Below, in pieces: positions 2,294 to 19,577 of a stretch of DNA of 19,876 nucleotides. Numbering within the stretch: the first letter of the stretch is position 1; every line of letters begins with the position of its first letter. The notes below the pieces were generated by a model. That model worked only from the letters and a program-made list of their open reading frames with translations. It ran no database searches and had not been told where the DNA came from. The DNA is from a virus. Its lineage: Duplodnaviria; Heunggongvirae; Uroviricota; Caudoviricetes. A program made the translations under genes and the position numbers. The stretch lies in IMG/VR virus record IMGVR_UViG_3300037471_001079, positions 1 to 19,876 of that record. The stretch is one strand, 5' to 3'.

Positions 2294-3657
2294 ATCAACT
2301 TCGGCCCGACCAGATAGAAGACCTGGCGCTGCTGATCTCCAACCCGAAGTTCATGCTCCTGAACGAGCCCGGCACCGGCAAGACGCCGACGGCTTGTGTC
2401 TACACCGAATACCTGGTGACGCGCATGAACATGGGCGTCATCTGGCTCCAGCCGCTCTCCATCATGGAGAAGAACCGTGACGAGCTCATCAAGTGGACCG
2501 GGCTCCGGTGCGCAATGGTGACGACCAACGACGTTCCCGACGACGTCGATGTCCTCTTGATGGGACCGGAACGGTTCAGGCGGGTGTGGCAGGACATCCC
2601 CAAGCGCTTCAAGGCCATCATCGGTGACGAGTGGCACATGATGTTCGGCGGCGCCACCAGCGCCAGGACGACAGCCCTCTTCGACTTCATGCGCCGGCAG
2701 GGCACGCACGTCCTGCCGATGACCGGCACCCTGATCAACGGCAAGCTGGACACGGCTTTCCCGGCCGTCCAGCTGATCGAGCCCCGCTACTACGGCGACT
2801 ACAGCCAGTTCTGCAACTACCATCACGACGTAGATCCTTGGACCGGGAAGCTGGCCGGTTACCGGAACCATCAGAAGCTGCGGTCGATCATGCTGCAGCA
2901 CGGCCAGCGGCGGACGTTCGAGGACGTCTATGGTCCTGAAGCAAAGATTATACAGATAGAATCTGTATCTTTGCTGCCGGCGCAGCGGGAGATGTACGAG
3001 ACCTTCGAGGAACAGGCCTACCTGGAACTCGAGAAGTTCGTCATCGATGGCACCCTACCAGGTACGGCCTTCATCCGATCGCGCCAGATCCTGGAGCATC
3101 CCAACAACTTCCCGGACCTGACCAACCCCAAGGCCCCGCCGATCGACATCCTCGCCGGTGAGATATCCGGCAAGGAGGAGCGGCTGGAGATCCACTTCCA
3201 GGATCACCTCAACACCGGCGAGCCACTCGTGGTGTTCTCGGCCTTGATGCCGCAACAGCGTCGCATCCTTGAACAGGCCAACCGAATGGGGCTCCGCTTC
3301 CGTCTGATCAACAGCACGGTCCTACCGTCCGAGCGTGCTCGGATAGATGAACAGTTCAGGGCTGGTGCCTTGGATGGTATCGTCTGCTCACCTCAATGTG
3401 CTTCAGTTGGTTTCAACTGGCAACTTCTCAATGGAAAGGAAATTGAACATGTAATCTTTGCGTCCATCGACTTCATGGACACATCCTTTATTCAGGCGTA
3501 TCGACGTTTCATCCGCGGTAAACGACAGAGACCTCTTCGCATAACGATGCTGAGGTATAGAGACACGATCGAAGACCGCATCTATCAGATCGTCGAGCAG
3601 AAATCCCAAGAAGCATACCTTGTCGATGAGACAAGACCTGTACTCGAATTGAGTTAG
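2290..3657 (+). CDS. SF2 (SNF2-like) DNA helicase
   Basis: Motif I EPGTGKT, motif II IIGDEWH, motif III MTGT, motif V SPQCASVGFN, and a motif VI-like QAYRRFIRG. Probable start GTG 2290 (MNQLRPDQ, a Q-motif position), coupled to the upstream stop. Confidence 0.92.
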   Translation: MNQLRPDQIEDLALLISNPKFMLLNEPGTGKTPTACVYTEYLVTRMNMGVIWLQPLSIMEKNRDELIKWTGLRCAMVTTNDVPDDVDVLLMGPERFRRVWQDIPKRFKAIIGDEWHMMFGGATSARTTALFDFMRRQGTHVLPMTGTLINGKLDTAFPAVQLIEPRYYGDYSQFCNYHHDVDPWTGKLAGYRNHQKLRSIMLQHGQRRTFEDVYGPEAKIIQIESVSLLPAQREMYETFEEQAYLELEKFVIDGTLPGTAFIRSRQILEHPNNFPDLTNPKAPPIDILAGEISGKEERLEIHFQDHLNTGEPLVVFSALMPQQRRILEQANRMGLRFRLINSTVLPSERARIDEQFRAGALDGIVCSPQCASVGFNWQLLNGKEIEHVIFASIDFMDTSFIQAYRRFIRGKRQRPLRITMLRYRDTIEDRIYQIVEQKSQEAYLVDETRPVLELS

Positions 3658-3665
3658 TACAACTC
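3651..3665. promoter_or_regulatory. Palindromic site GAGTT-N5-AACTC (copy 1)
   Basis: GAGTTAGTACAACTC overlaps the helicase stop; recurs at 10074 and 17516. Confidence 0.6.
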
Positions 3666-3678
3666 CGTTCAGGTACCA

Positions 3679-3706
3679 CTAGCAAATCTACCCAGCATCA
3701 CCATAT
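3679..3706 (+). promoter_or_regulatory. RpoH-like promoter (CTAGCA-N14-CACCATAT)
   Basis: Same element spacing as 85-112 and 10092-10119; lies upstream of the 3782 gene. Confidence 0.5.
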
Positions 3707-3715
3707 CAGGTTAGG

Positions 3716-3746
3716 CTCAGGGACAGCCAGTCCTTGGGCTTTTTTT
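3716..3746 (+). terminator. Intrinsic terminator-like hairpin
   Basis: GCTCAGGGAC-agcca-GTCCTTGGGC (10 bp, two G-U pairs) followed by T7 (3740-3746). Confidence 0.7.
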
Positions 3747-3781
3747 AACCTGACCTAACTCTTCTCAAGGAAACACGAACT

Positions 3782-4435
3782 TTGTCCAACCAAACCTCTA
3801 TTGACGCCGCCATTGCCGCCGCTTCCGCCGCCGCCAAGGCCGCCGTCCCTGCCACCATCGATCAGACCAGCACCGCTCTCGCCACCGTCCAGCCGGGCAA
3901 GGCGCGCTCGATGCTGACCGCGCTCGAAACCACCGGCACGACCGCCGACCTGTGGGTCAAGGTCGACGCCAGCGGCATCAAGCTCGGCTCCGATCACAAG
4001 ATCTACGAGAACTTCACCGCCAAGATCGAGCTCGACAAGGTCAAGGCACCCTACGCTCTGCGCTACAGCGTCAACGACTCCGCGACCTACAAGAAGTCTT
4101 ACGACGGCGTCGTCTCAACCGACGGCCGCCCGTGGGCAGAAGTGGTCGCCGAGGGCAAGCGTATCGATCCCAAGGCGACCGTCTATGACGCCGTCGAGGT
4201 GATCATGACCCTCAACGAGCCCCTGCAGAAGAAGGACGGCTCGATCATCGAGGCCGGTACCCAGATCGGCTACCAGACCGCCCCCACCGGCTTCCGGAAC
4301 TTCAAGAGCTGGTATGGTGACGCCGTCTCGGCCTTCGGCCCCGACGCCGAAGTCACCGTCCTCGTCGGCTACGAGGTGAAGTCGAAGAAGGGCAACAAGG
4401 ACTGGGGCGTCTGCACCTTCGAGACCGTGCAGTAA
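3782..4435 (+). CDS. Abundant phage replication protein, candidate ssDNA-binding/annealing protein
   Basis: TTG start with AAGGAA SD; extreme codon bias; bracketed by hairpins; sits next to the helicase. Beta-rich, aromatic/lysine-rich body with an Ala-rich N-terminus. The SSB function is inferred from context only. Confidence 0.8.
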   Translation: MSNQTSIDAAIAAASAAAKAAVPATIDQTSTALATVQPGKARSMLTALETTGTTADLWVKVDASGIKLGSDHKIYENFTAKIELDKVKAPYALRYSVNDSATYKKSYDGVVSTDGRPWAEVVAEGKRIDPKATVYDAVEVIMTLNEPLQKKDGSIIEAGTQIGYQTAPTGFRNFKSWYGDAVSAFGPDAEVTVLVGYEVKSKKGNKDWGVCTFETVQ

Positions 4436-4442
4436 GCGTACC

Positions 4443-4478
4443 AGGCGCCCTGCCGCTTAACAGTTCCACAGGGCGCCT
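4443..4478 (+). other. Hairpin just after the 3782 gene
   Basis: AGGCGCCCTG (4443-4452) / CAGGGCGCCT (4469-4478): perfect 10-bp stem with a 16-nt loop. Confidence 0.65.
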
Positions 4479-4483
4479 TCCCG

Positions 4484-4520
4484 CCCCCCAGGTTGTGTCG
4501 CGACCTGGGGGGTTTTCTTT
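4484..4520 (+). terminator. Intrinsic terminator
   Basis: CCCCCCAGGT (4484-4493) / ACCTGGGGGG (4503-4512) followed by TTTTCTTT. Confidence 0.85.
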
Positions 4521-4540
4521 GCCAATTTACAAGGAAACCA

Positions 4541-4858
4541 ATGGCTTCTGTCGTTATCGATGGAAAATCCTTCAACGGCAATAACATCACAATTCGGAAC
4601 GGACGGGTGACCGTCGATGGCGTCACTCAGGATGGCACCCTTCACGGTGTTGTCGAGGTACGCGTGGTCGAGGGTGTCCTCGCCAAACTGGAATGTGATG
4701 CATCCGTAACCTGTGGCGACGTCTGCGGAAGTGTTTCCGCCGGCGGATCAGTCACATGCAACAACGTCGGCGGGCACGTCTCAGCCGGTGGTAGCGTTAG
4801 GGCAGCCGGAAAAACCGGCGGCAACACCTCGGCCGGCGGCAGCGTCCGCATCGGCTAA
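4541..4858 (+). CDS. Small protein with SAGGSV repeats (predicted beta-helix / bactofilin-like)
   Basis: ATG 4541 with AAGGAAA SD; three SAGGSV repeats spaced 15-16 aa apart. Confidence 0.8.
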   Translation: MASVVIDGKSFNGNNITIRNGRVTVDGVTQDGTLHGVVEVRVVEGVLAKLECDASVTCGDVCGSVSAGGSVTCNNVGGHVSAGGSVRAAGKTGGNTSAGGSVRIG

Positions 4859-4875
4859 CAACTCAAGGACAATTT

Positions 4876-5124
4876 ATGACTGACACTCAATCTGTAGCAG
4901 CTGACCAGCTGAAGTCCCTCGTCGAGCGTATCGAGCGCCTCGAAGAGGACAAGAAGGCGATCTCCGATGACATCAAGGAGGTCTACGGCGAGGCCAAGGC
5001 CAACGGCTTCGACGTTGGCGTCCTGCGCACCATCATCCGTCTGCGGCGTCTCGCCAACGACGAGCGTATGGAGATGGAGGCGATCCAGGAGCTCTACCTC
5101 CAGGCACTCGGCATGCCGACGTGA
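4876..5124 (+). CDS. gapR: GapR / DUF2312 (UPF0335) nucleoid-associated DNA-binding protein
   Basis: AADQLKSLVERIERLEEDKKAISDDIKEVYGEAKANGFDVGVLRTIIRLR...LYLQALGM matches the DUF2312 consensus; AAGGA SD. Confidence 0.92.
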   Translation: MTDTQSVAADQLKSLVERIERLEEDKKAISDDIKEVYGEAKANGFDVGVLRTIIRLRRLANDERMEMEAIQELYLQALGMPT

Positions 5125-5228
5125 CCGTCGTCCGTCTCATCCAATTCACACTTCTGGCGGCGGGGATCTTCCTCGCCGCTCAGGCTGTTGGCACGGTGGT
5201 GCTGATCATCAAATCATCATTTGGATAA
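5121..5228 (+). CDS. Small single-TM protein (35 aa)
   Basis: MTVVRLIQFTLLAAGIFLAAQAVGTVVLIIKSSFG; GTGA overlap with the gapR stop; not in the ORF track. Confidence 0.55.
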   Translation: MTVVRLIQFTLLAAGIFLAAQAVGTVVLIIKSSFG

Positions 5229-5233
5229 TTTTC

Positions 5234-5338
5234 ATGTACGATCTTACGGATAAAATCAGGGAAGTCGTTTTCACAACTGTTGCCATTTGTGCAGCGGCGA
5301 TTGTCGTCAAATTCACGATCGATATCCTTCTGTCGTGA
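5234..5338 (+). CDS. Small single-TM protein (34 aa)
   Basis: MYDLTDKIREVVFTTVAICAAAIVVKFTIDILLS; its stop overlaps the GTG of the exonuclease. Confidence 0.5.
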   Translation: MYDLTDKIREVVFTTVAICAAAIVVKFTIDILLS

Positions 5339-6081
5339 CAATCCACATTCATGACGCCAACGGCGTCATTCGTCGCAGCCTGGAAGCCGACCGTATGGGT
5401 CGGTTTCCTCGCTCCATCTTCACCCGCATGACCACGGTCGACGAGCCCAACGTGTGGGTCTTCGACGGCCGCAACTCGCTCGCCAAGCGGCGGGAGCTGT
5501 ATCCTGCTTACAAAGACGGGCGTAAACCTCCGCGCGAAGACTTCTATCCCATGCTGCACTTCATCAAAGAGGTGCTCGCGTTCACGCGCGCCATCGTCGT
5601 CGAGGTGCCGGGGTACGAGGCGGACGACATCGTGGCGACGCTCGCCAAACGCTACGAGCCGGCCGGTGTCCACATCAACTCAAACGACCGGGATTTCCTG
5701 GCCCTCCAGAACGAAAGGATCAAGTGTGATGCTACTCCCCTCACTGGTGTTGAGGCTTCTGAAGTACGCCTCTACAAAACTCTCGTTGGTGATCCGTCGG
5801 ACAATATCAAAGGACTGAAAGGGTTCGGGCCGAAGGCCTGGGAGGGTCTGAACCAGGAAGACCGTGTCTACCTGCAGCTATGCTTCCAGCATGACCTGCC
5901 CCCAGGTGCTACCGCTGACAAGGTCATGCAGCGTATCCAGGTTGAGTGGTCTACCCTCAAGACCTACTGGGATATCGTCGGCTTTTACGACGTCGATCTC
6001 AAGCTGATCGAAGACCATATGGTCATCGGCAGCAACAACGTCGCCGAGGGCGACGCCTACCTTAAGAGGTTTCATCACTGA
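5335..6081 (+). CDS. 5'-3' exonuclease / flap endonuclease (PolA N-terminal domain-like, T5 D15/T7 gp6 type)
   Basis: HIHDANG, WVFDG, RRELYPAYKDGR, GYEADDIVATLA, SNDRDFL and the H3TH motif LVGDPSDNIKGLKGFGPKA. Probable GTG start at 5335. Confidence 0.93.
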   Translation: MTIHIHDANGVIRRSLEADRMGRFPRSIFTRMTTVDEPNVWVFDGRNSLAKRRELYPAYKDGRKPPREDFYPMLHFIKEVLAFTRAIVVEVPGYEADDIVATLAKRYEPAGVHINSNDRDFLALQNERIKCDATPLTGVEASEVRLYKTLVGDPSDNIKGLKGFGPKAWEGLNQEDRVYLQLCFQHDLPPGATADKVMQRIQVEWSTLKTYWDIVGFYDVDLKLIEDHMVIGSNNVAEGDAYLKRFHH

Positions 6082-6194
6082 TGCTATACATGATTTTCGG
6101 CCTCATATTTCTGAAGGCATTCACTGATCTGTCAATCATGGGATGTTTGGTGGTCCTCATCATATTGGGGGCTATTCGCGAGATTCTTTCATGA
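6081..6194 (+). CDS. Small membrane protein (37 aa)
   Basis: MLYMIFGLIFLKAFTDLSIMGCLVVLIILGAIREILS; TGATG overlap with the exonuclease stop; fills the gap before the polymerase. Confidence 0.5.
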   Translation: MLYMIFGLIFLKAFTDLSIMGCLVVLIILGAIREILS

Positions 6195-6215
6195 TTAAAT
6201 TCTTGAGGTATTTGA

Positions 6216-8870: not shown

Positions 8871-9070
8871 ACGACATTAAAATTCAGAAACACAAACTCG
8901 CTATCGCGAACGCCAAGGAGTTCATTCGACGTTCCGAGGCGGCGATCAAACAGCTGAAGGAAGACGAGAACTCCTGGTTCCGATCAAAGAAAAATTCAGC
9001 AGCCCTACGTGCCAGTCTCGATCTCAGTGAGAGCCTGGTCGATCTCAGGAGAGGTAACTACATCGCGTGA
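8867..9070 (+). CDS. Small hypothetical phage protein (67 aa)
   Basis: TTGA and GTGA overlaps with both neighbours. The helical SKKNSAALRASLDLSESLVDLRR pattern is reminiscent of a common phage hypothetical. Confidence 0.7.
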   Translation: MNDIKIQKHKLAIANAKEFIRRSEAAIKQLKEDENSWFRSKKNSAALRASLDLSESLVDLRRGNYIA

Positions 9071-10080
9071 CAATCATAGCAAGAATCATCGCAGACAGTA
9101 TCAGTGAGGCGGGTGACCGCCTCACCACCATGCAGCTACGCTATCCGCGCTGGATACACGCGGAAGGGCGGACCCACCGCATCATCAGTATGGGCGAAGA
9201 GGACACGATCTTCGAGATCAAAACCCCCTCGCTCATGGAAGACCCGAACCTATCCAGGAACGCCTCGTCCTCACGAGCCATTCCCACCGAGCGTTTCATC
9301 CAAGACGTTCTCGAAGACACTGCCTATCCTGTTTGGTGGGGCAAGAACCAGCCTGGTATGCAAGCTCGCGAGGAGAACAATGAGTTCGTCGAGATGGTCG
9401 CTCAGTACGACATGAACGACCAGCTTGACTACCAGCTCCTCAAGCTGACCCGCGAGGACGGTTTTGAGGCGGCTCGCGACTATGCAATCATGGTAGCGAG
9501 AGCGTACGCCAAGGCCGGCTACCACAAGCAAATCGTCAATCGGTTCCTGGAGCCCTACAGCCACATCAACGTGCTGGTCTCGGCCACGACCTGGGACAAC
9601 TTCTTTGAGCTGCGGGACCATCCCGACGCGCAGCCTGAGATCCAGGAGCTGGCTCGGGCTATGAAGGCGGCGCTGGAGGGTTCGACGCCTGTGTACCTGA
9701 TGAACGGGAGCTGGCATCTGCCTTATGTCGATCTCGGAAGCGAAGAAGGGGGGCGCATCGAGTGGTGGGCGCGGAACATCAAAGATGACCGCCACTCCGG
9801 GTATTCCCCACAACTTCCACCTGAAAAGTGGATGCACCGAACGGTTCTGCTCGGCCAGCAGATCTCGGTCGCCCGCTGCGCCCGCGTCTCGTACCTGACG
9901 CACGATGGTAAGGAGCCTGACATCCAGAGCGACCTGGCGCTCTATGACCGTCTCGTCGGGTCCAAACCTCTCCATGCCTCTCCGGCCGAGCACGTCGCGA
10001 CGCCGATGCCTGGACGGTGGGGGAACTTCACTGGCTGGAAGCAGCACCGGCAGTTTCTGGAAGAAATCGACCAGAGTTAA
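9067..10080 (+). CDS. thyX: Flavin-dependent thymidylate synthase (ThyX/Thy1), phage type
   Basis: IIADSIS...RLTTMQLRYPRWIHAE..THR...SRNASSSRAIP, HKQIVNRFLEP, NFFELR.HPDAQPEIQELA, SVARCARVSY, HASPAEH. Confidence 0.9.
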   Translation: MTIIARIIADSISEAGDRLTTMQLRYPRWIHAEGRTHRIISMGEEDTIFEIKTPSLMEDPNLSRNASSSRAIPTERFIQDVLEDTAYPVWWGKNQPGMQAREENNEFVEMVAQYDMNDQLDYQLLKLTREDGFEAARDYAIMVARAYAKAGYHKQIVNRFLEPYSHINVLVSATTWDNFFELRDHPDAQPEIQELARAMKAALEGSTPVYLMNGSWHLPYVDLGSEEGGRIEWWARNIKDDRHSGYSPQLPPEKWMHRTVLLGQQISVARCARVSYLTHDGKEPDIQSDLALYDRLVGSKPLHASPAEHVATPMPGRWGNFTGWKQHRQFLEEIDQS

Positions 10081-10088
10081 TATAACTC
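10074..10088. promoter_or_regulatory. Palindromic site GAGTT-N5-AACTC (copy 2)
   Basis: GAGTTAATATAACTC overlaps the thyX stop and ends 3 nt upstream of a -35-like hexamer. Confidence 0.6.
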
Positions 10089-10091
10089 CAA

Positions 10092-10119
10092 GTTGCACTC
10101 ATGTCGGGGATGCCCATAT
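10092..10119 (+). promoter_or_regulatory. RpoH-like promoter (GTTGCA-N14-GCCCATAT), predicted to give a leaderless mRNA
   Basis: Same spacing as 85-112; the expected start site (about 10126-10127) coincides with ATG 10127, which has no SD. Confidence 0.55.
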
Positions 10120-10126
10120 CCCCGTC

Positions 10127-10549
10127 ATGAGCAAGAACACCGGCAAGCCCACCGAAAAGGAATTCGAAGACCGCTTTGCCCGCCTGGGCAAGGCTGCCTT
10201 CCTATACCGCTTCGTTGACGCCGCTGAGGTTCGCGGGAGAACCGGCAAGATCGGTTTCACTCGCGACGCCCCGGCAGATTATTTGATCACGCAAGAGGGT
10301 GTAACCTCTTACGCCGAGGTCAAGTCCACCAGCGATCCCACCGCATTTCGTTTCAGCCTGTTGAGGCAAACGCAAAGCGCAACCGCAGCTATGGTGCGGA
10401 TCGCGGGCGGTCTGTACGACATCTACGCCCACCATATCCCGACAGGGACTTGGTACAAGTTCCCTTACAGCCTGGTTCAGGCGGTAAAGGATGCCGGCTC
10501 TGGCTCTATTCCGTGGAAGAAGCTGGAGAATTTTATTTGGTCAATTTGA
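10127..10549 (+). CDS. PD-(D/E)XK nuclease, RecU-like Holliday junction resolvase
   Basis: GKPTEKEFE (first helix Glu), PADYLI...YAEVKST catalytic motif, LRQTQ; 140 aa; in a recombination context. Confidence 0.75.
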   Translation: MSKNTGKPTEKEFEDRFARLGKAAFLYRFVDAAEVRGRTGKIGFTRDAPADYLITQEGVTSYAEVKSTSDPTAFRFSLLRQTQSATAAMVRIAGGLYDIYAHHIPTGTWYKFPYSLVQAVKDAGSGSIPWKKLENFIWSI

Positions 10550-10692
10550 AAAAGTGGTACTCGCTTCCCGTATACGTCAGAGAAAGGATCGCCGCCATTA
10601 AGGCCCTAACCAACATCCCCAAGAATGAACGCAATCGTTTGATCTCGGAGACGTTGGCGGAGCACGAGAAGAACAAGGCGGTCAATGTCTGA
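10546..10692 (+). CDS. Small hypothetical protein (48 aa)
   Basis: TTGA overlap with the resolvase stop; MKKWYSLPVYVRERIAAIKAL...; overlaps the next start. Confidence 0.5.
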   Translation: MKKWYSLPVYVRERIAAIKALTNIPKNERNRLISETLAEHEKNKAVNV

Positions 10693-11230: not shown

Positions 11231-11490
11231 TGCTTCACTTCGCGCTGTTGGGCGCAATCAATCCCAACCTGACCGTCGGCCCGCGTCTGATCAACACCGA
11301 CGGCGTCCTCGCCTTCCACCTGGCGATCTATGACGAGGTCACCACTGAGCTCGTCGCCTACGAAGGTGAGCCGATCGAGATCTCGGCCACGAACCTGGAC
11401 GACATCTACGCCATGGTCGACTTCCTCGACGAGGCCGCCGACCTGCCGATCTATGTCGCCGGCGTGCCTGAGGAAACCGATTTTGCGTAA
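11224..11490 (+). CDS. Acidic hypothetical protein (86-88 aa)
   Basis: GC3-biased ORF coupled to the exonuclease stop (ATG 11224 or 11230). Confidence 0.7.
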   Translation: MLMLHFALLGAINPNLTVGPRLINTDGVLAFHLAIYDEVTTELVAYEGEPIEISATNLDDIYAMVDFLDEAADLPIYVAGVPEETDFA

Positions 11491-11755
11491 GTTCCTGCTC
11501 AAACTGGCCCTGGCTGTCGGCCTCGGCACGGCTCTCGTCTGGTTCACATACCCGGCAAAGGCCCTCACCCCACTCGGCATGATGGTCCAGATGGATCGCT
11601 GTCCGAACGTCGCTTTGCTGGTTCAGACGCCGAAGGCGCTCGCCGCCTTCGACGCCTGGGACAAGAAGCAGATCGACGACCAGCAGCTTGACGAGGCTCT
11701 CGGCGGCAAGGCTGGCGACTTCATCAAGAAATGCACAGGAGGACGTGACGCTTGA
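11483..11755 (+). CDS. Exported/periplasmic protein with signal peptide (90 aa)
   Basis: GAGGAAA SD with TTG 11483; MRKFLLKLALAVGLGTALVWFTYPAKA is a basic-hydrophobic-AxA signal; two Cys in the mature part. Confidence 0.7.
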   Translation: MRKFLLKLALAVGLGTALVWFTYPAKALTPLGMMVQMDRCPNVALLVQTPKALAAFDAWDKKQIDDQQLDEALGGKAGDFIKKCTGGRDA

Positions 11756-12687: not shown

Positions 12688-12917
12688 CGGCGCTGCAAAT
12701 GATGCTCGACCTACCCCTGGTCGATGCTGAGAGGGCGGTCCTGACTGCCCTGGTCGACTCCCACAAGGCGGGTTCCTATTGGGACACACTCTACCGGTTG
12801 GAGGCGGCCTGGGAACAAGCTGGCTCCGACCTCTCCATCCTGATCCAAAACATTTGCGCGAAGGCCCGCGAGGCGGGTCTCGATAAAACCTTTGAGGATT
12901 TGAAACGAAATGTGTAA
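12654..12917 (+). CDS. Hypothetical protein (about 72-87 aa)
   Basis: ORF fills the space after sbcD; start ATG 12654 or 12699. Confidence 0.6.
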   Translation: MSETVQNDWRLTALQMMLDLPLVDAERAVLTALVDSHKAGSYWDTLYRLEAAWEQAGSDLSILIQNICAKAREAGLDKTFEDLKRNV

Positions 12918-13296
12918 TTCTGTAACTGCTATCAAAACGGTTATGAGTAACTACGTTGATCTTTGTCCTAATGGGTTCGCCTATAGAATGGATGACCCGG
13001 CATTGACGGATCGCGAATTCATGACAAGTGATCGCTACGTTCAACAATTTGACCGTTCGGTGGAATTTCTCAATCAAGTTAAGCGAACCAAACATGTTCA
13101 ATATGGGATTTCTTCTTATAGTTGGAAACATGTGGCTGAAAATTGGCACAGACGAAAGAACGTTGATCCGGACGGCGATTATTATATAAGCAGCGGTATG
13201 TTTATAGCGGCTGCTATCTCCATGGGTTTTCTAATCAAGAAGACCGATAGCCCAAATGTTATGCTCAACATATCCAAACGATCGGATAAAGTGTGA
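12910..13296 (+). CDS. AT-rich hypothetical protein (128 aa)
   Basis: SSYSWKHVAE...YYISSGMFIAAAISMGF pattern seen in small mobile/phage proteins; codon usage differs from neighbours; overlaps both flanking ORFs. Confidence 0.7.
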   Translation: MCNSVTAIKTVMSNYVDLCPNGFAYRMDDPALTDREFMTSDRYVQQFDRSVEFLNQVKRTKHVQYGISSYSWKHVAENWHRRKNVDPDGDYYISSGMFIAAAISMGFLIKKTDSPNVMLNISKRSDKV

Positions 13297-13694
13297 TCTG
13301 GCATCCCCCGTCTGACATCCCCAACGTGGCCGAGGGTCGCGTTGGGACCTACCTGATCGCCTTCACCTCCAGGTATAATGACAAGAAGTTCGTCCGCGAG
13401 GCTTGTTATCTGAACCAGTATCCGCTGGAAGATGAAGACGGCACCCTACCATACGACCCCAACGGCGAGGCCGAGCCGGCCTACACCGGCTGGTACTTCT
13501 GCGGTGACTCGCCTCACTACGACGAGTTCTATTCGCCGGTTCGCAACGATATCGACGGCTGGGCTGAAATGCCGGCTCACCCCGGCACTGTGATCGGCCC
13601 TGTTACATTCGTAGGAACATTTTTCGATGCTGACATCTCTGGACTACTCAGTCACTTTTCCGTCGACCGGACGGACACTGTCCAACTCGATTGA
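13293..13694 (+). CDS. Hypothetical phage protein (133 aa)
   Basis: GTGA-coupled; W-H-P N-terminus and GW...P near the C-terminus, as in small phage DUF551-like proteins (tentative); overlaps the sbcC start by 68 nt. Confidence 0.65.
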   Translation: MIWHPPSDIPNVAEGRVGTYLIAFTSRYNDKKFVREACYLNQYPLEDEDGTLPYDPNGEAEPAYTGWYFCGDSPHYDEFYSPVRNDIDGWAEMPAHPGTVIGPVTFVGTFFDADISGLLSHFSVDRTDTVQLD

Positions 13695-15615
13695 TTTCAA
13701 GACCGGCGTCGGCCTGATCACCGGCCCGAACGAGAGCGGGAAGTCGCTCATCGTCGAGATGATCCGCTACGGCCTGTTCGGGAGCGAGGCTCTGCGCGGG
13801 CCGGCGGACGACTACCGCACTCTCCGCATGAAGTTGGTCTGGTCCCTCAGGGACCACACCTACATCGTCGAGCGTAATGGCCGGTCGGCCGACCTGTTCA
13901 AGGATGACGTCCAGATTGCGACAGGGGTTCGACCTGTCAATTCTAAGATCCAGGAAATCCTGGGATTTGGATTGGACGTCTTCGACATCTCCTGCGTGAC
14001 GAACCAGGGGGACGTCGAGAAGCTCGTCTCTATGCGACCGGGCGACCGGAAGTCGATGATCGACCGGGTCATCGGCGTCGACAAGATCGAGGCCTTGGCC
14101 AAGTGGTCGGGCGACGAGGCACTGATCCGTCAACGCCAGATCGCGCTCGAAGAACCCCGCCTGGTGGAGCCAGTCGCGCCCGTGACGCCGGCGACCTACC
14201 AACCGTCGGACGCGATCCAGGGCCAGCTCCTGGCCCTAGTCAGGTTCAAGGCCGAGTACGACCAGCTGGTTGGCTGGCTCTCGCACGAAAAGCGGGAGCC
14301 GATCCAGCCGGTCGACACCCAGCCGGACTACAGCTTGGACTACATCATCGAGATCGAGGCCAAGGCTGCGGAGAAGGCTCGGCTCATGAAGGAGCTGGTC
14401 ACCCTTCCTAAACCATCCGAGTGGAGGGAAGAGGACTTGGTCCGTGCCGAGAAGCAGATCGAGGCTTGGGAGTTGTGGCAGGAGCGTCTGCGCTTCGAGC
14501 AGCGTCACCCTCGACCTGATTTCAGCAGGTCCGAGCTAACGTTGGAACAGACGGCTATCGACCGAAAGGCCGAGCGGGCGCAGCTGATGCGGACGCTCAT
14601 GAACCTCCACCGCGGTGCAGTTACCTGCCCCTGCGGCCGGGAGTTCGAGCTGGAGCACGCCAAGATAGCCGAGCTACAGCAGCGGCTTGACAGCCTTCCG
14701 GCCTTGGAGGCGACCATGACCCAAGCTCTGATCAACGAGCAGCTTCATCGACACGTCGACTGGGAGTCCACCGAGACGCAGGTCGCCTACGAGTTCCATG
14801 AGAAGGCAACCTTGATCGAGAAGCCGTTCCTGGACCGGAAGGGTGTGGCGCAGATGCGACGCATCAACGAGCTCGCCGGCCGTCGGCCCGAGATTGAGGC
14901 GGCGATCAACGCTATCGGCCACCTCCCGAACGTATCTCGTTCGGAAAAGGAACGGTACCTCGCCCAGGCCGCGGTCTACGATGAGGCTGTCGCCTCCTAC
15001 CAGCTCTGGTTCGAGGAGTTCCAGCGGCGGTCGGATAGGATGGAGGAACTTCGTCCGTTCATCGCTCAGATCCCTGGCCTGCAGAAGGACCTGCTGGTCA
15101 GTCAGAACTTCGAGATGCAGCTGGCCGCCTACGAGCGGGATCTGATCCAGTATCAGGCTGCCAAGCTGCAGCTCGACGCGCTCAAGGACGAGGCGACCGG
15201 CTGGCGTGCCTGCCGGGCGGCGATGACCGAGCTCAGGTCCCGCATCAAGGCCTACCTGGTCCCGAGCTTGAACCGGGTCGCCAGCCACCTCCTGCATCAG
15301 ATGACCGGAGGTTCTCGGCAGACGATCACGGTCGACGAGGATTTCGACACCATCTTGGTCGACGGTCAGAGTATCGACACACTCTCCGGCTCCGGAAAGG
15401 CGTGTGCCAACCTGGCCCTGAGAGTGGGGTTGGGACAGGTCCTCACAAATAATGTGTTCTCATTGTTCATCGGGGACGAGATCGACGCCTCAATGGACGA
15501 AAATCGAGCCAAGAATACGCTCGAGTTATATACAACTCTGTCCGAGAAGATATTGCAAATTCTGCTTGTCACCCACAAATCCCTGATTGCGGACTACACT
15601 ATCGCGTTGCGATAG
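13627..15615 (+). CDS. sbcC: SbcC/Rad50-like SMC ATPase
   Basis: Walker A GPNESGKS, Q-loop TNQG, long coiled coil with a central CPCG hook, signature LSGSG, Walker B/D-loop FIGDEIDASMD, H-loop VTH. Confidence 0.92.
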   Translation: MLTSLDYSVTFPSTGRTLSNSIDFKTGVGLITGPNESGKSLIVEMIRYGLFGSEALRGPADDYRTLRMKLVWSLRDHTYIVERNGRSADLFKDDVQIATGVRPVNSKIQEILGFGLDVFDISCVTNQGDVEKLVSMRPGDRKSMIDRVIGVDKIEALAKWSGDEALIRQRQIALEEPRLVEPVAPVTPATYQPSDAIQGQLLALVRFKAEYDQLVGWLSHEKREPIQPVDTQPDYSLDYIIEIEAKAAEKARLMKELVTLPKPSEWREEDLVRAEKQIEAWELWQERLRFEQRHPRPDFSRSELTLEQTAIDRKAERAQLMRTLMNLHRGAVTCPCGREFELEHAKIAELQQRLDSLPALEATMTQALINEQLHRHVDWESTETQVAYEFHEKATLIEKPFLDRKGVAQMRRINELAGRRPEIEAAINAIGHLPNVSRSEKERYLAQAAVYDEAVASYQLWFEEFQRRSDRMEELRPFIAQIPGLQKDLLVSQNFEMQLAAYERDLIQYQAAKLQLDALKDEATGWRACRAAMTELRSRIKAYLVPSLNRVASHLLHQMTGGSRQTITVDEDFDTILVDGQSIDTLSGSGKACANLALRVGLGQVLTNNVFSLFIGDEIDASMDENRAKNTLELYTTLSEKILQILLVTHKSLIADYTIALR

Positions 15616-15639
15616 TTTTATTCACACTCAAGGGTTTTC

Positions 15640-16029
15640 ATGGATAGGCAAGTCATTCTCGACGAGCTCAAGCGCGTTGGCGGCAATCTCAGCAAGGTCG
15701 CCAACGCTCTTGACCTCGACTACTTCACTCTCAAACAGGAATACGGCTCGGAGGTTGATTCCTACTTCCCCCAGGCCAAAGGTCCAGAACCGGAGGATAT
15801 TGGTTCTCTGGCAGGGAACCCGAACCTTGCCAAGTACGTGATCGCGGTCAAGCCCCGCGGTGCCGAGTGGCCGTCACATTATGACGACGTCATTCGCTTC
15901 CATCGCAAGAGGTTCAACCACGGCCTCTGCGCGATCATGAGTGAAACCAGCCGGAACGGCTGGGTCATTCTCTACTCAATACCTTTTCAAACACCTCTCC
16001 CTCGTGGGAAATTTTTTGAGGCAATTTGA
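15640..16029 (+). CDS. Protein with N-terminal Fis-type HTH
   Basis: RQVILDELKRVGGNLSKVANALDLDYFTL follows the Fis/NtrC HTH_8 pattern; C-terminal domain unrecognised. Confidence 0.65.
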   Translation: MDRQVILDELKRVGGNLSKVANALDLDYFTLKQEYGSEVDSYFPQAKGPEPEDIGSLAGNPNLAKYVIAVKPRGAEWPSHYDDVIRFHRKRFNHGLCAIMSETSRNGWVILYSIPFQTPLPRGKFFEAI

Positions 16030-16535
16030 TGTCTGACATTCGACTTTACGTCGCCAACGGAAAGCTGGTCGATCCGTTCGATCTCCAGCCCGGCGACATC
16101 GACGAGACCTGCATCGCGCACGCGCTCTCCAACATCAACCGGTATACCGGCAACTACCCGTTCCCGTATTCGGTCGCTCAGCACAGCTGCGTCTTGACCC
16201 TGTTCACGGTTCCGGTTCTGCACAAGGCCGTGCTCCTGCACGACGTCAGCGAGATGTTCCTCGCCGACATCCCGAACCCGATGAAGCGCATCCTGCCGGA
16301 CTACCAGAAGCTCGAGTTCGAGATCCAGACCGAGATCTTTCGGTACTTTGGCGTCCCGATCGAGCACCTCCACGCGATCCACAAGGAGGACCGGGCGATC
16401 TGCATGGACGAGATGAACTACGGCTACGGCGCCGAGTTCAAGGACGGCCTGGGTATCGCCGCCATCCAGCCCATGAAGTGGTACGAGGCCAAGGCCATGT
16501 ACATCCGGAAGTGGGGCGAAGTTTTCGATCAGTAA
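16026..16535 (+). CDS. HD-domain phosphohydrolase (YfbR/YfdR-like deoxynucleotidase)
   Basis: IAHALSNINRYTG...YSVAQHS...LLHDVSE...DIPNPMK. Confidence 0.88.
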   Translation: MMSDIRLYVANGKLVDPFDLQPGDIDETCIAHALSNINRYTGNYPFPYSVAQHSCVLTLFTVPVLHKAVLLHDVSEMFLADIPNPMKRILPDYQKLEFEIQTEIFRYFGVPIEHLHAIHKEDRAICMDEMNYGYGAEFKDGLGIAAIQPMKWYEAKAMYIRKWGEVFDQ

Positions 16536-16549
16536 GGATATTTGAACAA

Positions 16550-17008
16550 ATGCCTTTTTATTGGAACGACATTACTGCGGCCGAGGAAGACCTCAAGCGT
16601 GAGCGTGAGCGTGACCGTGAGCGCAAGACCTACCCTGTCAGCGAGCCTGGCTTCATTAAGACGATGGAGCTCCGGTCTTCTGACAAGGACCCTGCTCCCA
16701 CCAAGATGCAGCGCTTCAACGCCGGTAAGCTGCCTCTTCACCTGGTCGATACGATCCTCGCCGAGAAGGTCGCCGAGATCCTCCGCTTCGGCATCCAGAA
16801 GGGCTACGAGCCCGACAACTGGCGCAAGGGCGGCAGCTGGCGGGAGACGATCGGCTCGTTGGAGCGGCACGTCGCCGACTTCAAGAAGGGGATTGACCTC
16901 GACCACGAGTCCAAGCTGGAGAACCTGGCTCACGCCGCCTGCAACATCATGTTTCTGCTTTACTTTTTTGAACACGGATTAGGTACTGATGACCGCATCA
17001 AGCATTGA
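16550..17008 (+). CDS. DUF5664 dATP/dGTP diphosphohydrolase-like protein
   Basis: RFNAGKLPLHLV...VAEILRFGIQKGY.PDNWRKG...SLERH...G.DLD.ES.L.NLAHAACNIMFL. Probable start ATG 16550 after AAGGA. Confidence 0.82.
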   Translation: MPFYWNDITAAEEDLKRERERDRERKTYPVSEPGFIKTMELRSSDKDPAPTKMQRFNAGKLPLHLVDTILAEKVAEILRFGIQKGYEPDNWRKGGSWRETIGSLERHVADFKKGIDLDHESKLENLAHAACNIMFLLYFFEHGLGTDDRIKH

Positions 17009-17528
17009 CAACTATCACGACTTCGTCGCCGAACTGGCGGCACCCGGCCGGCTCCGTGAGGAGCTGGTACCGCCGGCGCTCCTGAACTCGCAGCTGTTCA
17101 AGGACGCCTACAACACCCGCATCATCGACGACATCAAGAAGGCGCTGTTCTACGGTCGTGACACCGACTTGCTGGACTACTGGCGAGACCAACTGGGCCA
17201 CACAACCGGAGCCACCTACGACGTCGTCCACAAGGACTTGCTCCACGCCATCCTCGGCATGCGATCGGAGTCCGGTGAGCTGATCGAGCTGCTATACACC
17301 GCCCTGGTCGATAAGACCGAGATCGATAGGACCAAGCTGATCTCCGAGCTCGGTGATGTCCTCTGGTACCTGGCGCTCGCCTGTAACGTGCTGGGGATCA
17401 ATCTCTGGGATGTGATCGACGGTAACGTCACCAAGCTGCTCAAGCGTTTCCCGAACGCAAAGTTCTCGGAGGCGCTCGCCATCAACAAGAACGTGGACGC
17501 AGAAAATGAGTTGCTGAGTTCTGTATAA
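16989..17528 (+). CDS. MazG-like NTP pyrophosphohydrolase
   Basis: LLHAILGMRSESGEL.E and ELGDVLWY...N..KL.KRFP motifs. Confidence 0.88.
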   Translation: MTASSIDNYHDFVAELAAPGRLREELVPPALLNSQLFKDAYNTRIIDDIKKALFYGRDTDLLDYWRDQLGHTTGATYDVVHKDLLHAILGMRSESGELIELLYTALVDKTEIDRTKLISELGDVLWYLALACNVLGINLWDVIDGNVTKLLKRFPNAKFSEALAINKNVDAENELLSSV

Positions 17529-17531
17529 CTC
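17516..17531. promoter_or_regulatory. Palindromic site GAGTT-N6-AACTC (copy 3)
   Basis: GAGTTCTGTATAACTC (extends to TGAGTT/AACTCA) overlaps the MazG-like stop, upstream of nrdJ. Confidence 0.55.
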
Positions 17532-17543
17532 AAGCTTTTCTGC

Positions 17544-17571
17544 CCTGGAAATACCGCAATAGACTACATAC
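17544..17571 (+). promoter_or_regulatory. Degenerate RpoH-like promoter (CCTGGA-N14-CTACATAC)
   Basis: Weaker match at the same spacing; the predicted start site (about 17578) falls inside the hairpin's 5' arm. Confidence 0.35.
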
Positions 17572-17606
17572 CTCATGGTTCCTTCCCGAACCATGAGGTA
17601 TTTTTT
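17568..17606 (+). terminator. Terminator-like hairpin that also sequesters the nrdJ SD
   Basis: ATACCTCATGGTT (17568-17580) / AACCATGAGGTAT (17589-17601): perfect 13 bp, then a T-run. The SD GAGGT (17595-17599) lies in the 3' arm. Confidence 0.8.
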
Positions 17607-17609
17607 ATT

Positions 17610-19577
17610 TTGACAAGCCCTTCTTTTCGCGCCCAACTTATTACCCGTCGTACCTACAACCGTCCCCTCGAAGACGGCACGTTCGAGACCTGGGAACAGA
17701 CTGTCGACCGCGTCATCGGCCACCAGCGTTGGCTCTGGGAGCGCGCCCAGGGTGAGGCCCTGAACACCGACCAGGAGGACGAGCTCGCCGAGCTCCGGCA
17801 GCTGATGGTCACCCGCAAGGCTTCCACCTCCGGCCGCACTCTCTGGCTGGGAGGGACCGAGATCTCCAAGCGCCGCGAGGCTTCCCAGTTCAATTGCAGC
17901 TTCTCCTCGGTCGAGACCGTCTATGATGTCGTCGACTCGTTCTGGCTGCTCCTCAACGGCTGCGGCTTTGGCGGCCGGATGGAGAACGGCATTCTCAACG
18001 GCTTCACCCAGCCGATCGAGGACATCGAGGTCATCCGCTCCAAGCGCACGATCGCCGAGTACGAGGCTGGTGAGCGCGGTGATCCGAACACGCGTGAGAC
18101 CCTACGGCGCGGTGTCTGGACCATCAAGCTAGGTGACAGTGCCGAGGCATGGGCCAAGGCCGTCGGCAAGCTGCTGGCTCAGAAGCGGCCCGCCCGCAAG
18201 CTCGTCCTGGACTTCTCCGAAATCCGCGCCGCTGGCATCCGCCTGAAAGGCTACGGCTGGCTGTCGTCTGGCGACGAGACGATCTCGATCGCGCTGCACG
18301 AGATCGCCAAGATCCTGTCCAAGCGCGCCGGCCAGCTGCTGACCAAGATAGACATTCTCGACATCGAGAACTGGCTCGGCACCACGCTGTCGTCCCGGCG
18401 CGCGGCCGAGATCATGCTGATGGAGTTCCAGGACCCGGAGGCCGAGGTGTTCATCACGGCCAAGAAGGACTACTGGACCACCAACCCGCAGCGCGGCCAG
18501 TCCAACAACACGGTCCTGTTCTATCACAAGCCGACCCGGATGGAGCTCAAGGGTCTGTTCTCGACCATGCTTGACGCCGGCGGCTCGGAGCCTGGCTTCG
18601 CCAACGCCATTGCCGCTCTCAAACGGGCGCCGTGGTTTAAGGGCTTCAACCCCTGTGCTGAGATCCTGCTGGGCAACAAGTCGTTCTGCAACCTGGTCGA
18701 GCTCGATCTCGGCAAGTTCCAGAACCTGGCCGTGCTGATGCGCGCGATCTGGATCGTCGCCCGCGCCAACTACCGGCAGACCTGCGTCAACCTCAAGGAC
18801 GGCGTGCTCTCCGACAGCTGGCATGAGCTGAACGAGTTCCTGCGCCTGTGCGGTGTGGGCCTGACCGGTGTGGTCAAGTTCTTCCGTGGGCTGGACGCCA
18901 AGGTGTTCCAGATGATGCGGGACATGGCCCGCAGCGGCGCGGACTCGATCGCCGACGAGCTCGGGCTACCTCGCGCCAAGCTGGTCACCACTATCAAGCC
19001 GAGCGGCACACTGTCGAAGATCATGGACACCACCGAGGGCGCTCACAAGCCCCTGGGCAAGTACATCTTCAACAACGTGAATTTCTCCAAGCATGACCCG
19101 CTGATCCCGATGCTGAAGGACGCCGGCTACCACATGTTCGACAACCCGACCGACCCGGCCGGTGTAGTAGTCCGCCTGCCCGTCGCCTACGAGGACGTGG
19201 AGTTCGACGTCGTCAACGGTGTCGAGGTCAATCTCGAGTCTGCTGTCGATCAGCTGGAGCGGTACAAGTTCCTGATGGAGAACTACGTCGATCATAACTG
19301 CTCGATCACTGTCAGCTATGATCCGAGCGAGATCCCAGCGATCATCGACTGGCTGGACCGGAACTGGGACAGCTATGTAGGCGTCAGCTGGCTTCTCCGC
19401 AATGATCCGACCAAGACCGCGGCCGATCTCGGGTTCCCATACCTTCCTCAGGAAGTCGTCACGCGCGAGACGTACGAGGCGTATGTGGCCACCCTGGCCC
19501 CGATCGCTCTCGACGGCGACAGCGGTGAGGAGCTCGTGGACGATGCGTGCTCGACCGGGGCGTGCCCGGTTCGCTAA
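17610..19577 (+). CDS. nrdJ: Class II (adenosylcobalamin-dependent) monomeric ribonucleotide reductase
   Basis: RRTYNR...ETWEQTVDRV, QFNCSF, catalytic NPCAEI, FCNL, TTIKPSGT, and the C-terminal shuttle cysteines ACSTGACPVR. TTG start. Confidence 0.95.
   Translation: MTSPSFRAQLITRRTYNRPLEDGTFETWEQTVDRVIGHQRWLWERAQGEALNTDQEDELAELRQLMVTRKASTSGRTLWLGGTEISKRREASQFNCSFSSVETVYDVVDSFWLLLNGCGFGGRMENGILNGFTQPIEDIEVIRSKRTIAEYEAGERGDPNTRETLRRGVWTIKLGDSAEAWAKAVGKLLAQKRPARKLVLDFSEIRAAGIRLKGYGWLSSGDETISIALHEIAKILSKRAGQLLTKIDILDIENWLGTTLSSRRAAEIMLMEFQDPEAEVFITAKKDYWTTNPQRGQSNNTVLFYHKPTRMELKGLFSTMLDAGGSEPGFANAIAALKRAPWFKGFNPCAEILLGNKSFCNLVELDLGKFQNLAVLMRAIWIVARANYRQTCVNLKDGVLSDSWHELNEFLRLCGVGLTGVVKFFRGLDAKVFQMMRDMARSGADSIADELGLPRAKLVTTIKPSGTLSKIMDTTEGAHKPLGKYIFNNVNFSKHDPLIPMLKDAGYHMFDNPTDPAGVVVRLPVAYEDVEFDVVNGVEVNLESAVDQLERYKFLMENYVDHNCSITVSYDPSEIPAIIDWLDRNWDSYVGVSWLLRNDPTKTAADLGFPYLPQEVVTRETYEAYVATLAPIALDGDSGEELVDDACSTGACPVR

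What the first reader, a model, noticed from the sequence alone, without database searches (positions are those of the whole stretch)
3651..17610. Recurring three-part expression gate: palindromic site + RpoH-like promoter + start-blocking hairpin
Seen in sequence: three intergenic gaps (before the SSB-like gene, the resolvase and nrdJ) share one layout. (1) GAGTT-N5/6-AACTC overlaps the previous gene's stop (3651, 10074, 17516). (2) A CTTGCA-N14-CCCCATAT-like promoter follows (3679, 10092, 17544). (3) An RNA hairpin overlaps or follows the promoter. The distances from palindrome centre to -35 start are 21, 11 and 20.5 bp, so they differ by about one helical turn. Inference: long read-through transcripts are terminated or translationally silenced at these genes, and the genes switch on only when a dimeric factor plus an RpoH-type sigma starts a new transcript inside the hairpin. 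This would be a staged, possibly stress-coupled switch for SSB, resolvase and RNR that I cannot match to a described system.
Basis: partly seen in the sequence, partly recalled or inferred. Interest (0 to 1): 0.82.

Follow-up and report, generated by a model that had tools for sequence, protein, structure and literature searches.

The report
Dyad, promoter, hairpin at phage junctions
An uncultured 84-kb soil phage starts four of its replication-gene units with its own short palindrome, set at a fixed distance before a heat-shock-type promoter box and an RNA hairpin; the layout is real and related phages share its outline, but it is a variant of regulatory cassettes already described in T4-type phages, not a new kind of switch.

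Summary
GAGTT-N5/6-AACTC occurs 4 times in the window (0.04 expected), including a missed copy at 15523 inside the SbcC-like gene, and a fifth good copy lies at genome position 55655. Four copies sit 13, 3, 13 and 13 bp before a box resembling CTTGCA-N14-CCCCATAT. That box has a perfect copy at 85-112 and matches the rhizobial RpoH consensus. The fit is strong at 3679, 10092 and 15552, and weak at 17545.

The hairpins at 3714-3740 and 17568-17601 are ordinary intrinsic terminators. A second phage lineage has the same design there, with a different stem and one compensatory pair.

Related phages place their own, different palindromes at the same three gene junctions. The best reading is phage-specific regulator sites in front of internal promoters, combined with terminators, plus T4-style start masking at the resolvase gene. 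The closest known systems are T4 e/soc/I-TevI control and PeSL cassettes.

No transcript data exist, and both the sigma factor and the binding protein are unproven. An earlier scan note describes a second palindrome family in this genome.

The parts
85..112 (+). P0: perfect box CTTGCA-N14-CCCCATAT. It has no dyad upstream. The stop codon (TGA 99-101) of the last gene of the circular map lies in its spacer.
117..208 (+). Long hairpin (117-192) followed by U-rich runs, directly after P0. It is either a candidate leader with terminator or a small RNA of about 95 nt.
   Evidence: -31.4 kcal/mol; no Rfam match
3651..3665 (+). S1 dyad GAGTT-AGTAC-AACTC, overlapping the helicase TAG stop
3679..3706 (+). 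S1 RpoH-like box CTAGCA-N14-CACCATAT, 13 bp after the dyad
3706..3753 (+). S1 intrinsic terminator: inner stem 3714-3740, U7 at 3741-3747, with an outer stem around it. The next gene starts at 3782.
10074..10088 (+). S2 dyad GAGTT-AATAT-AACTC, overlapping the ThyX TAA stop
10092..10119 (+). S2 RpoH-like box GTTGCA-N14-GCCCATAT, 3 bp after the dyad
10098..10131 (+). S2 hairpin without a U-run. The -10 box is in the loop and the resolvase ATG (10127) is in the 3' arm. There is no Shine-Dalgarno sequence.
15523..15538 (+).
15552..15580 (+). S4 box ATTGCA-N15-CCACAAAT, 13 bp after the dyad. The -10-like part coincides with conserved His-Lys codons.
15598..15616 (+). S4 weak hairpin with a short U-run, over the SbcC stop and before the Fis-type HTH gene (ATG 15640)
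15640..16029 (+). Gene for a 129-aa protein with an N-terminal Fis-type helix-turn-helix. It is the candidate reader of the dyad (inference only).
17516..17531 (+). S3 dyad GAGTT-CTGTAT-AACTC, overlapping the MazG TAA stop
17545..17571 (+). S3 weak box CTGGAA-N13-CTACATAC, 13 bp after the dyad
   Evidence: P 0.0076
17568..17609 (+). S3 intrinsic terminator: 14-bp stem followed by U6AU4. The 3' arm holds the only GAGG before the nrdJ TTG at 17610.

Best explanation
These are the internal control junctions of the phage's replication and nucleotide-metabolism operon. Each junction combines three elements. (a) A phage-specific dyad, GAGTT-N5/6-AACTC. It is most likely the DNA site of a phage-encoded dimeric regulator and is centred about 55 bp (45 bp at the resolvase gene) upstream of the predicted start, which is an activator-type position. 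(b) A promoter of the sigma-70 family whose boxes fit the RpoH consensus better than the housekeeping one. (c) A stem-loop. At the SSB-like, HTH and nrdJ junctions the stem-loop is an intrinsic terminator that ends or attenuates transcription coming from upstream. At the resolvase gene it hides an SD-less AUG in read-through RNA, while the internal promoter, whose -10 box sits in the hairpin loop, should start transcription at or next to that AUG and give a translatable leaderless mRNA. Shown here: the elements, their non-random co-occurrence and spacing, the folds, and the positional conservation in relatives. Inferred: that the boxes fire, which sigma factor reads them, that the dyad acts on DNA as an activator site, and which protein binds it.
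For: There are four exact dyads against 0.04 expected. The box sits at gaps of 13, 3, 13 and 13 bp, with background P of 3.6e-5, 3.6e-5, 1.6e-4 and 0.0076. The box spacers share no sequence, so only the two boxes and their distance are kept. The box equals CTTGCA-N15-CCCATAT, against S. meliloti RpoH1 CTTGAA-N15-16-CCTATAT and RpoH2 CTTGCC-N15-16-CCTATCT (PMC4843759) and the E. coli sigma-32 -35 element CTTGAA (PMC10216364). Helicase relatives carry names from Mesorhizobium, Ensifer, Aureimonas and Nitratireductor, and the phage comes from rhizosphere and soil. The dyads fold weakly as RNA, at -2.2 to -3.0 kcal/mol. The S4 dyad and its -35-like box lie inside a coding region and use rare codons: TTA is 3 of 405 Leu codons and ATA is 5.6% of Ile codons. 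Phage L025 places its own dyad (AGTGTA-S-TACAC) after the helicase, before the resolvase and before the HTH gene, which are the junctions of S1, S2 and S4. The L015/16/17/31 group has a 12-bp hairpin before the resolvase ATG with GCCCATAT in the loop, the ATG in the 3' arm and no SD. The only variable stem position shows AU, GC and CG pairs. Its own dyad is centred about 54 bp from the predicted start. That group also carries its motif at the homologous SbcC codons. The terminators are canonical.
Against: There are no transcript data: all public runs holding this phage are DNA. The RpoH-like box was not found in 27 related loci or by collection scans, and the L015 group lacks a matching -35 box. 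At P0, S1 and S4 the predicted start lies at or before the first base of a hairpin with a U-run, so these promoters would transcribe straight into a terminator. The model does not explain this. The dyad is directional (GAGTT-N1-2-RTAY-AACTC, all copies on one strand) and its spacer length varies, which is unusual for a rigid symmetric dimer site. The fifth copy (55655) has no box. The covariation rests on three distinct sequences, and 85 of 500 shuffles reached it. The -10-like part of S4 coincides with conserved His-Lys codons. No binding protein has been identified.
Confidence: 0.5

Rival explanations
1. The dyad is an operator for a repressor, or a roadblock protein, that shuts the internal promoters or the read-through transcription. 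This is how palindromes work in the early regions of this phage family.
For: In the L023/24/28/32 relatives the lineage dyad GT[AC]CG-WWW-CG[GT]AC overlaps the -10 region of TTGACC-type promoters just before ribosome sites, a repressor-type position. In L025 the dyads lie only 9-22 nt before terminators, which leaves no room for a promoter in between.
Against: In this genome the dyad lies 3 or 13 bp upstream of the -35 box and does not overlap the core promoter. The 10-bp step between the two spacings keeps the dyad on one face of the helix, which is typical of activators that touch RNA polymerase.
Confidence: 0.2
2. Promoter-proximal termination control. The boxes fire constitutively into the terminators, giving short RNAs, and a phage factor loaded at the dyad lets polymerase read through. 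The factor would act either on DNA, as lambda Q does at its binding element, or on an RNA hairpin, as N does at boxB.
For: The order dyad, then box, then hairpin with U-run recurs at P0, S1, S4 and S3. In L025 and several relatives a dyad directly precedes a terminator. The dyad has the dimensions of boxB: a 5-bp stem and a 5-6-nt loop.
Against: No Q-type antiterminator family was detected. The RNA hairpins are very weak, and it is the arms, not the loops, that are conserved within this genome. In the L015 group the motif occurs in the reverse orientation after the helicase. P0 has no dyad.
Confidence: 0.12
3. The box is not RpoH-specific. It is read by the host housekeeping sigma factor, whose consensus is lax in rhizobia, or by polymerase redirected by a phage protein. 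The 'stress coupling' would then be an artefact of consensus matching.
For: The identification rests only on similarity to consensus sequences. The host is unknown. Relatives use other promoter types, and one encodes its own ECF-type sigma factor.
Against: The conserved C-rich CCCATAT lacks the housekeeping TATNNT pattern in every register I tried, yet matches RpoH -10 consensus sequences at 6 of 7 positions. No sigma gene was found in this genome.
Confidence: 0.3
4. The elements are copies of a mobile or recombination-spread cassette, like PeSLs. They would be kept mainly as module boundaries, with little regulatory meaning of their own.
For: They sit exactly at gene-module borders, and relatives differ in gene content at these borders. 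PeSLs show that such cassettes can drive shuffling.
Against: Only the short boxes are shared and the flanks and spacers are not, so there is no sign of recent duplication. One copy is written into a conserved coding region at the homologous codons in two lineages.
Confidence: 0.08

Closest known systems
T4 translational gating of late-expressed genes (e, soc, I-TevI, I-TevII/III, segB). Gene 49, endonuclease VII, is added from my own knowledge.
   Same: A stable hairpin on long early or middle transcripts hides the translation start. A promoter placed so that its transcripts lack the 5' arm frees the start (PMC2988022). S2 has this layout, and it guards a Holliday-junction resolvase, the same function as T4 gene 49.
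   Different: Here the masked element is an SD-less AUG, predicted to become a leaderless mRNA. The internal promoter is RpoH-like rather than a gp55 late promoter (TATAAATA). A dyad site lies upstream. Nothing has been tested experimentally.
PeSL (promoter-early stem-loop) cassettes of RB49/phi1 T4-type phages
   Same: These are compact intergenic cassettes with the same parts in the same order: the stop codon of the upstream gene in an AT-rich stretch before the -35 box, a promoter, a stem-loop overlapping or following the promoter that acts as a terminator, and then the next gene's start (PMC2839356).
   Different: PeSLs are strong host sigma-70 early promoters present in dozens of copies in hyperplastic regions. 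Here there are 4-5 copies in the conserved replication module, an RpoH-type box and a sequence-specific dyad. No evidence of shuffling or mini-circles was found.
Activator-dependent late promoters of P2/P4/186 (Ogr/Delta, dyad near -55) and Mu (Mor, C)
   Same: A phage-specific dyad upstream of an imperfect promoter, at about -55 with helical phasing. This comparison rests on my own knowledge.
   Different: The dyad sequence differs. No Ogr- or Mor-type protein was detected. The promoter boxes here are close to an alternative-sigma consensus.
Conserved inverted repeats bound by the phiC31 c repressor, and the lineage-specific early-gene palindromes of this phage family
   Same: One short palindrome is reused at many transcription-unit starts, and each phage lineage has its own sequence.
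   Different: Those sites overlap the core promoter, which is a repressor geometry. The GAGTT dyad lies upstream of the -35 box.
Lambda pR'-tR' with Q, and nut/boxB with N
   Same: A promoter followed closely by a terminator, with a short dyad nearby.
   Different: No Q or N homologue was found. The RNA stem is weak and its loop is not conserved. There is one dyad per terminator, rather than one site per operon.

Membership tests
RpoH (sigma-32) dependent promoter | -35 element CTTGAA-like | tested here: met
   CTTGCA, CTAGCA, GTTGCA and ATTGCA each match 4-5 of 6 positions, against CTTGAA/CTTGCC. CTGGAA at 17545 is weaker.
RpoH (sigma-32) dependent promoter | C-rich -10 element (CCCCATNT in E. 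coli, CCTATAT in S. meliloti) 15-16 nt after the -35 hexamer | tested here: met
   CCCATAT lies 15 nt after the hexamer at 85, 3679 and 10092. The fit is poorer at 15552 and 17545.
RpoH (sigma-32) dependent promoter | Transcription start 6-8 nt downstream, and dependence on RpoH | not testable with these tools
   There are no RNA runs for this phage and the host is unknown.
T4-type start-masking hairpin with internal promoter | A stable hairpin pairs the start codon or ribosome site on read-through RNA | tested here: met
   S2: the ATG is paired, -23.9 kcal/mol, z -5.2. S3: GAGG lies in the 3' arm of the terminator. This is not the case at S1, where the ribosome site lies outside the hairpin.
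T4-type start-masking hairpin with internal promoter | The internal promoter starts inside the hairpin, so the 5' arm is missing from its transcript | tested here: inconclusive
   Predicted starts are about 10126 (3' arm, S2) and about 17578 (5' arm, S3). At S1 (about 3713) and S4 (about 15587) the predicted start lies before the stem. These are predictions only.
T4-type start-masking hairpin with internal promoter | The structure is conserved in relatives | tested here: met
   The L015/16/17/31 hairpin has the same loop box and a masked ATG. One stem pair shows AU, GC and CG; the sample is small.
PeSL cassette | Host sigma-70 consensus early promoter with an AT-rich upstream region holding the previous stop codon | tested here: not met
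   The stop codon does lie in an AT-rich dyad, but the boxes are RpoH-like and sit in the replication module, not the early region.
PeSL cassette | A stem-loop overlapping or abutting the promoter that terminates upstream transcription | tested here: met
   Predicted at all sites. Termination was not measured.
PeSL cassette | Many copies in hyperplastic regions that mediate module shuffling | not tested
   There are only 4-5 copies, and no sister genomes differing in gene content are available (one search shows only identical copies).
Intrinsic (Rho-independent) terminator | GC-rich stem-loop followed directly by a U-run | tested here: met
   3713-3741 with U7 and 17568-17601 with U6AU4 are met. 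15598-15616 is weak. 10098-10131 has no U-run and is not a terminator.
Lambda-type nut/boxB antitermination site | A stable RNA hairpin with a conserved loop, read by an N-type protein | tested here: not met
   The hairpins fold at -2.2 to -3.0 kcal/mol. The arms are conserved but the loops are variable in sequence and length. No antiterminator family was found.

The most novel reading that the evidence does not exclude
A whole class of phage middle genes (replication, recombination, nucleotide supply) is driven by the host's heat-shock sigma factor RpoH together with a phage activator bound at about -55. Expression would then be tied to the stress that infection itself causes. The toxic resolvase would be made only from a leaderless mRNA born inside its own masking hairpin.
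Probability: 0.2. Interest if true: 0.7.

Novelty: new variant of a known kind. Interest (0 to 1): 0.5.

Why it matters
If the boxes are real RpoH promoters, this would be an unusual case of a phage timing its replication genes through a host stress sigma factor, in the little-studied 80-kb JWF/Seuss-like phages of soil alphaproteobacteria. The resolvase junction offers a clean, testable example of hairpin masking combined with leaderless translation outside the T4 world. The lineage-specific palindromes at conserved junctions offer a route to identify the still unknown regulators of this phage family by co-variation.

Tried and rejected
Close relatives were sought to test conservation. Megablast against GenBank phages found nothing, and a single-protein scan of viral contigs found nothing. 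Seven public runs hold the phage but are essentially identical DNA, so they gave no informative variants and no RNA.

The RpoH-like box was not found above chance in 27 related loci. Pattern scans for CCCATAT followed by the resolvase start recovered only the L015 group in viral contigs and only chance hits in metagenome contigs.

The window has no Rfam family or tRNA. The genome has no T7-type RNA polymerase, sigma-70 region 2, homologue of a relative's ECF sigma factor, or Q-type antiterminator.

A sigma-54 reading of the TTGCA box was rejected because the GG-GC spacing is 12 or 8 nt rather than 10. An RpoE reading of GAACTT at P0 was rejected because there is no TCAAA-type -10 element. Reading the dyad's TAYAAC as a -10 hexamer was rejected because no -35 element lies 16-18 nt upstream at any site. 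A possible housekeeping-type promoter overlapping the 3' arm of the S1 terminator (CTTGGG-N16-CTAACT) was noted, but it is too weak to claim.

The JWF characterisation paper is not in the library.


Full report
CONTEXT

The window is the first 19,876 bp of an 83,876-bp IMG/VR phage genome. It has 59% G+C, and a 127-bp terminal overlap indicates a circular assembly.

All window genes lie on the + strand and form a replication and nucleotide-metabolism module:
- SNF2-type helicase, 2209-3657
- a 217-aa protein of unknown family, 3782-4435
- 5'-3' exonuclease
- family A DNA polymerase
- ThyX, 9067-10080
- Holliday-junction resolvase, 10127-10549
- exonuclease
- Mre11-like and SbcC/Rad50-like proteins, the latter at 13627-15615
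- a 129-aa protein with a Fis-type HTH, 15640-16029
- HD phosphatase
- MazG, 16989-17528
- nrdJ, 17610-19577

The nearest named phages are Achromobacter JWF, Caulobacter Seuss, Achromobacter 2-1 and Xylophilus Lumi, at 36-42% helicase identity. The best metagenomic relatives reach only 54%, and several carry names from Mesorhizobium, Ensifer, Aureimonas and Nitratireductor. Essentially identical DNA is present in seven soil and rhizosphere runs, and none is an RNA run. From this I infer that the host is a soil alphaproteobacterium.

THE OBSERVATION

GAGTT-N5/6-AACTC occurs at the three stated places and overlaps the stop codons as described. There are four exact copies in the window against 0.04 expected, and degenerate versions occur at chance level.

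It lies inside the SbcC-like gene, 92 bp before its stop. The genome holds two more copies:
- 55655, in a 550-bp non-coding stretch just after a bidirectional terminator.
- 68316, inside a coding region with a G+C-rich spacer, probably chance.

The five good copies all read GAGTT-N1-2-RTAY-AACTC on the same strand.

THE PROMOTER-LIKE BOX

A perfect CTTGCA-N14-CCCCATAT lies at 85-112 (P0), with the stop codon of the last gene of the circular map inside its spacer. The sites at 3679 (S1) and 10092 (S2) each match it at 12 of 14 positions with the identical spacer length but unrelated spacer sequence. 15552 (S4) matches 11 of 14.

The gap from the end of the dyad to the -35 box is 13, 3, 13 and 13 bp. 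I scored this fixed geometry at every position of the genome. The background P values are 3.6e-5, 3.6e-5, 1.6e-4 and 0.0076. The copies at 55655 and 68316 do not pass. The geometry was derived from S1 and S2, so S4 and S3 are the independent tests.

Written as CTTGCA-N15-CCCATAT, the box is one base per element away from the S. meliloti RpoH1 consensus CTTGAA-N15-16-CCTATAT and close to the RpoH2 consensus CTTGCC-N15-16-CCTATCT (PMC4843759). It also shares the E. coli sigma-32 -35 element CTTGAA (PMC10216364). It fits the housekeeping -10 pattern in none of the registers I tried. The genome encodes no detectable sigma factor or phage RNA polymerase.

THE HAIRPINS

All fold far better than shuffled sequence.
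- 3714-3740 with U7, and 17568-17601 with U6AU4, are textbook intrinsic terminators.
- 15598-15616 is a weak one.
- P0 is followed by an 18-bp-stem hairpin (117-192) and U-runs.
- 10098-10131 has no U-run. It carries the -10 box in its loop and the resolvase ATG in its 3' arm, and there is no Shine-Dalgarno sequence. The family profile alignment supports this start codon.

I took the transcription start as 7 nt after the -10 box. On that assumption:
- The S2 transcript would begin at or next to the ATG, giving a leaderless mRNA free of the hairpin.
- The S3 transcript would begin inside the 5' arm, removing both the terminator and the masking of the only GAGG before nrdJ.
- The P0, S1 and S4 transcripts would begin at or before the stem and carry the whole terminator.

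It does not fit S1.

COMPARATIVE EVIDENCE

The dyad sequence is not conserved, but its use is.

- **L025** (41% helicase identity) has its own dyad, AGTGTA-S-TACAC, at four sites. These include right after the helicase, over the polymerase TAG stop just before the resolvase ATG, and over the SbcC TAG stop just before the homologue of the Fis-type HTH gene. Each is followed by a terminator or hairpin. These three are the junctions of S1, S2 and S4.

- **The L015/L016/L017/L031 group** has a 12-bp hairpin before its resolvase whose loop carries GCCCATAT, identical to the S2 -10 box. Its 3' arm contains the ATG, again with no Shine-Dalgarno sequence.
  - The stem differs entirely from ours.
  - Its only variable position shows three different Watson-Crick pairs. 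The sample is small, and 85 of 500 shuffles reached the observed score.
  - About 54 bp upstream of the predicted start lies that group's own dyad, CTTGTCC-N8-GGACAAG. This matches the -55, -54.5 and -56.5 positions of S1, S3 and S4; S2 is at -45, one helical turn closer.
  - The same group carries a variant of its motif at the codons of the SbcC gene that are homologous to S4.

- **S4 codon usage.** In our genome the S4 dyad and its -35-like box are written in rare codons: TTA is 3 of 405 Leu codons, ATA is 5.6% of Ile, and ACA and ACT are each about 10% of Thr. This argues for selection on the nucleotides. The -10-like part, however, coincides with conserved His-Lys codons.

- **Other relatives.** Most place a lineage-specific dyad directly after the helicase stop and then a terminator, and several reuse that dyad many times. 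In the L023 group it overlaps the -10 region of TTGACC-type promoters, which is a repressor geometry.

- **Limits.** The RpoH-like box itself was not found in other relatives or in wider scans.

INTERPRETATION

The dyads form weak RNA hairpins (-2.2 to -3.0 kcal/mol). Within a genome their arms are conserved rather than their loops. They occur inside coding sequence, and in the L015 group in both orientations. They are therefore most likely DNA sites of a phage regulator.

Their position upstream of the -35 box, with a 10-bp step between the two spacings, suggests activation. That remains inference.

The Fis-type HTH protein is a candidate reader because its gene is preceded by the lineage dyad in three lineages, and because its putative recognition helix differs between them. 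No test of binding was made.

The terminators probably partition the long operon. At S2, and perhaps S3, the stem-loop doubles as a translational mask.

What remains unexplained is why P0, S1 and S4 place a promoter immediately before a terminator. Attenuation, short RNAs or antitermination are all possible, and no Q-type protein was found.

COMPARISON WITH KNOWN SYSTEMS

Start-masking hairpins relieved by an internal promoter are established for T4 I-TevI, e, soc and others (PMC2988022). From my own knowledge this also applies to gene 49, the T4 resolvase.

PeSL cassettes of RB49/phi1 combine the previous gene's stop codon in an AT-rich stretch, a promoter, an overlapping terminator stem-loop and the next start (PMC2839356).

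Dyads near -55 are known from P2-type late promoters (my own knowledge).

The present elements differ in three ways: the box type, the sequence-specific dyad, and the leaderless design at the resolvase gene. I therefore class them as a new variant of a known kind.

I confirmed three copies, and my comparisons agree with that idea.

Noticed in passing
window 117-215: Directly after the perfect RpoH-like box there is a long hairpin (18-bp stem with an internal multiloop) followed by U-runs, and a second terminator-like hairpin at 260-276. This could be a small RNA of about 95 nt or a structured leader. It has no Rfam match.
   Followed up: partly
genome 60690, 61379, 62891, 64688 (outside the window): A second repeated junction element: a CTAACACCCACA box over TAA stop codons, followed by hairpins of the CACACTC...GAGTGTG type. 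It lies near the tRNA-like genes noted earlier in this genome.
   Followed up: no
genome 55527-56083 (outside the window): A 550-bp non-coding stretch; the minus-strand ORFs predicted there look spurious. It holds a bidirectional terminator, the fifth GAGTT dyad (55655), a G6/C6 hairpin and the first GGACAATTGTCC early operator (56048).
   Followed up: partly
L005 (Achromobacter phage JWF) 315-9920: The 15-bp palindrome GGTTCGTAACGAACC occurs 7 times between small early genes, with the upstream gene's TAA in its centre and a conserved ribosome site right after it. In the JWF replication module a different dyad, CACCA-N3-TGGTG, sits between promoter-like boxes.
   Followed up: partly
L008 1642-2076: A related phage encodes a 144-aa ECF-type sigma factor in its early region. 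This genome has no homologue.
   Followed up: yes
helicase stop codons of loci L007-L032: Most relatives end the helicase gene with TAG, the usually rare stop codon. A lineage-specific palindrome follows at once, then a terminator.
   Followed up: partly
It resembles phage protein clusters that carry Pam3_Gp34/DUF5895 labels. An alanine-rich N-terminus is conserved in all relatives at this position.
   Followed up: partly
window 313-816: The first gene after P0 encodes a 168-aa protein whose N-terminus looks like a sigma region-4/LuxR-type helix-turn-helix. It has no family match. It is a second candidate regulator.
   Followed up: no
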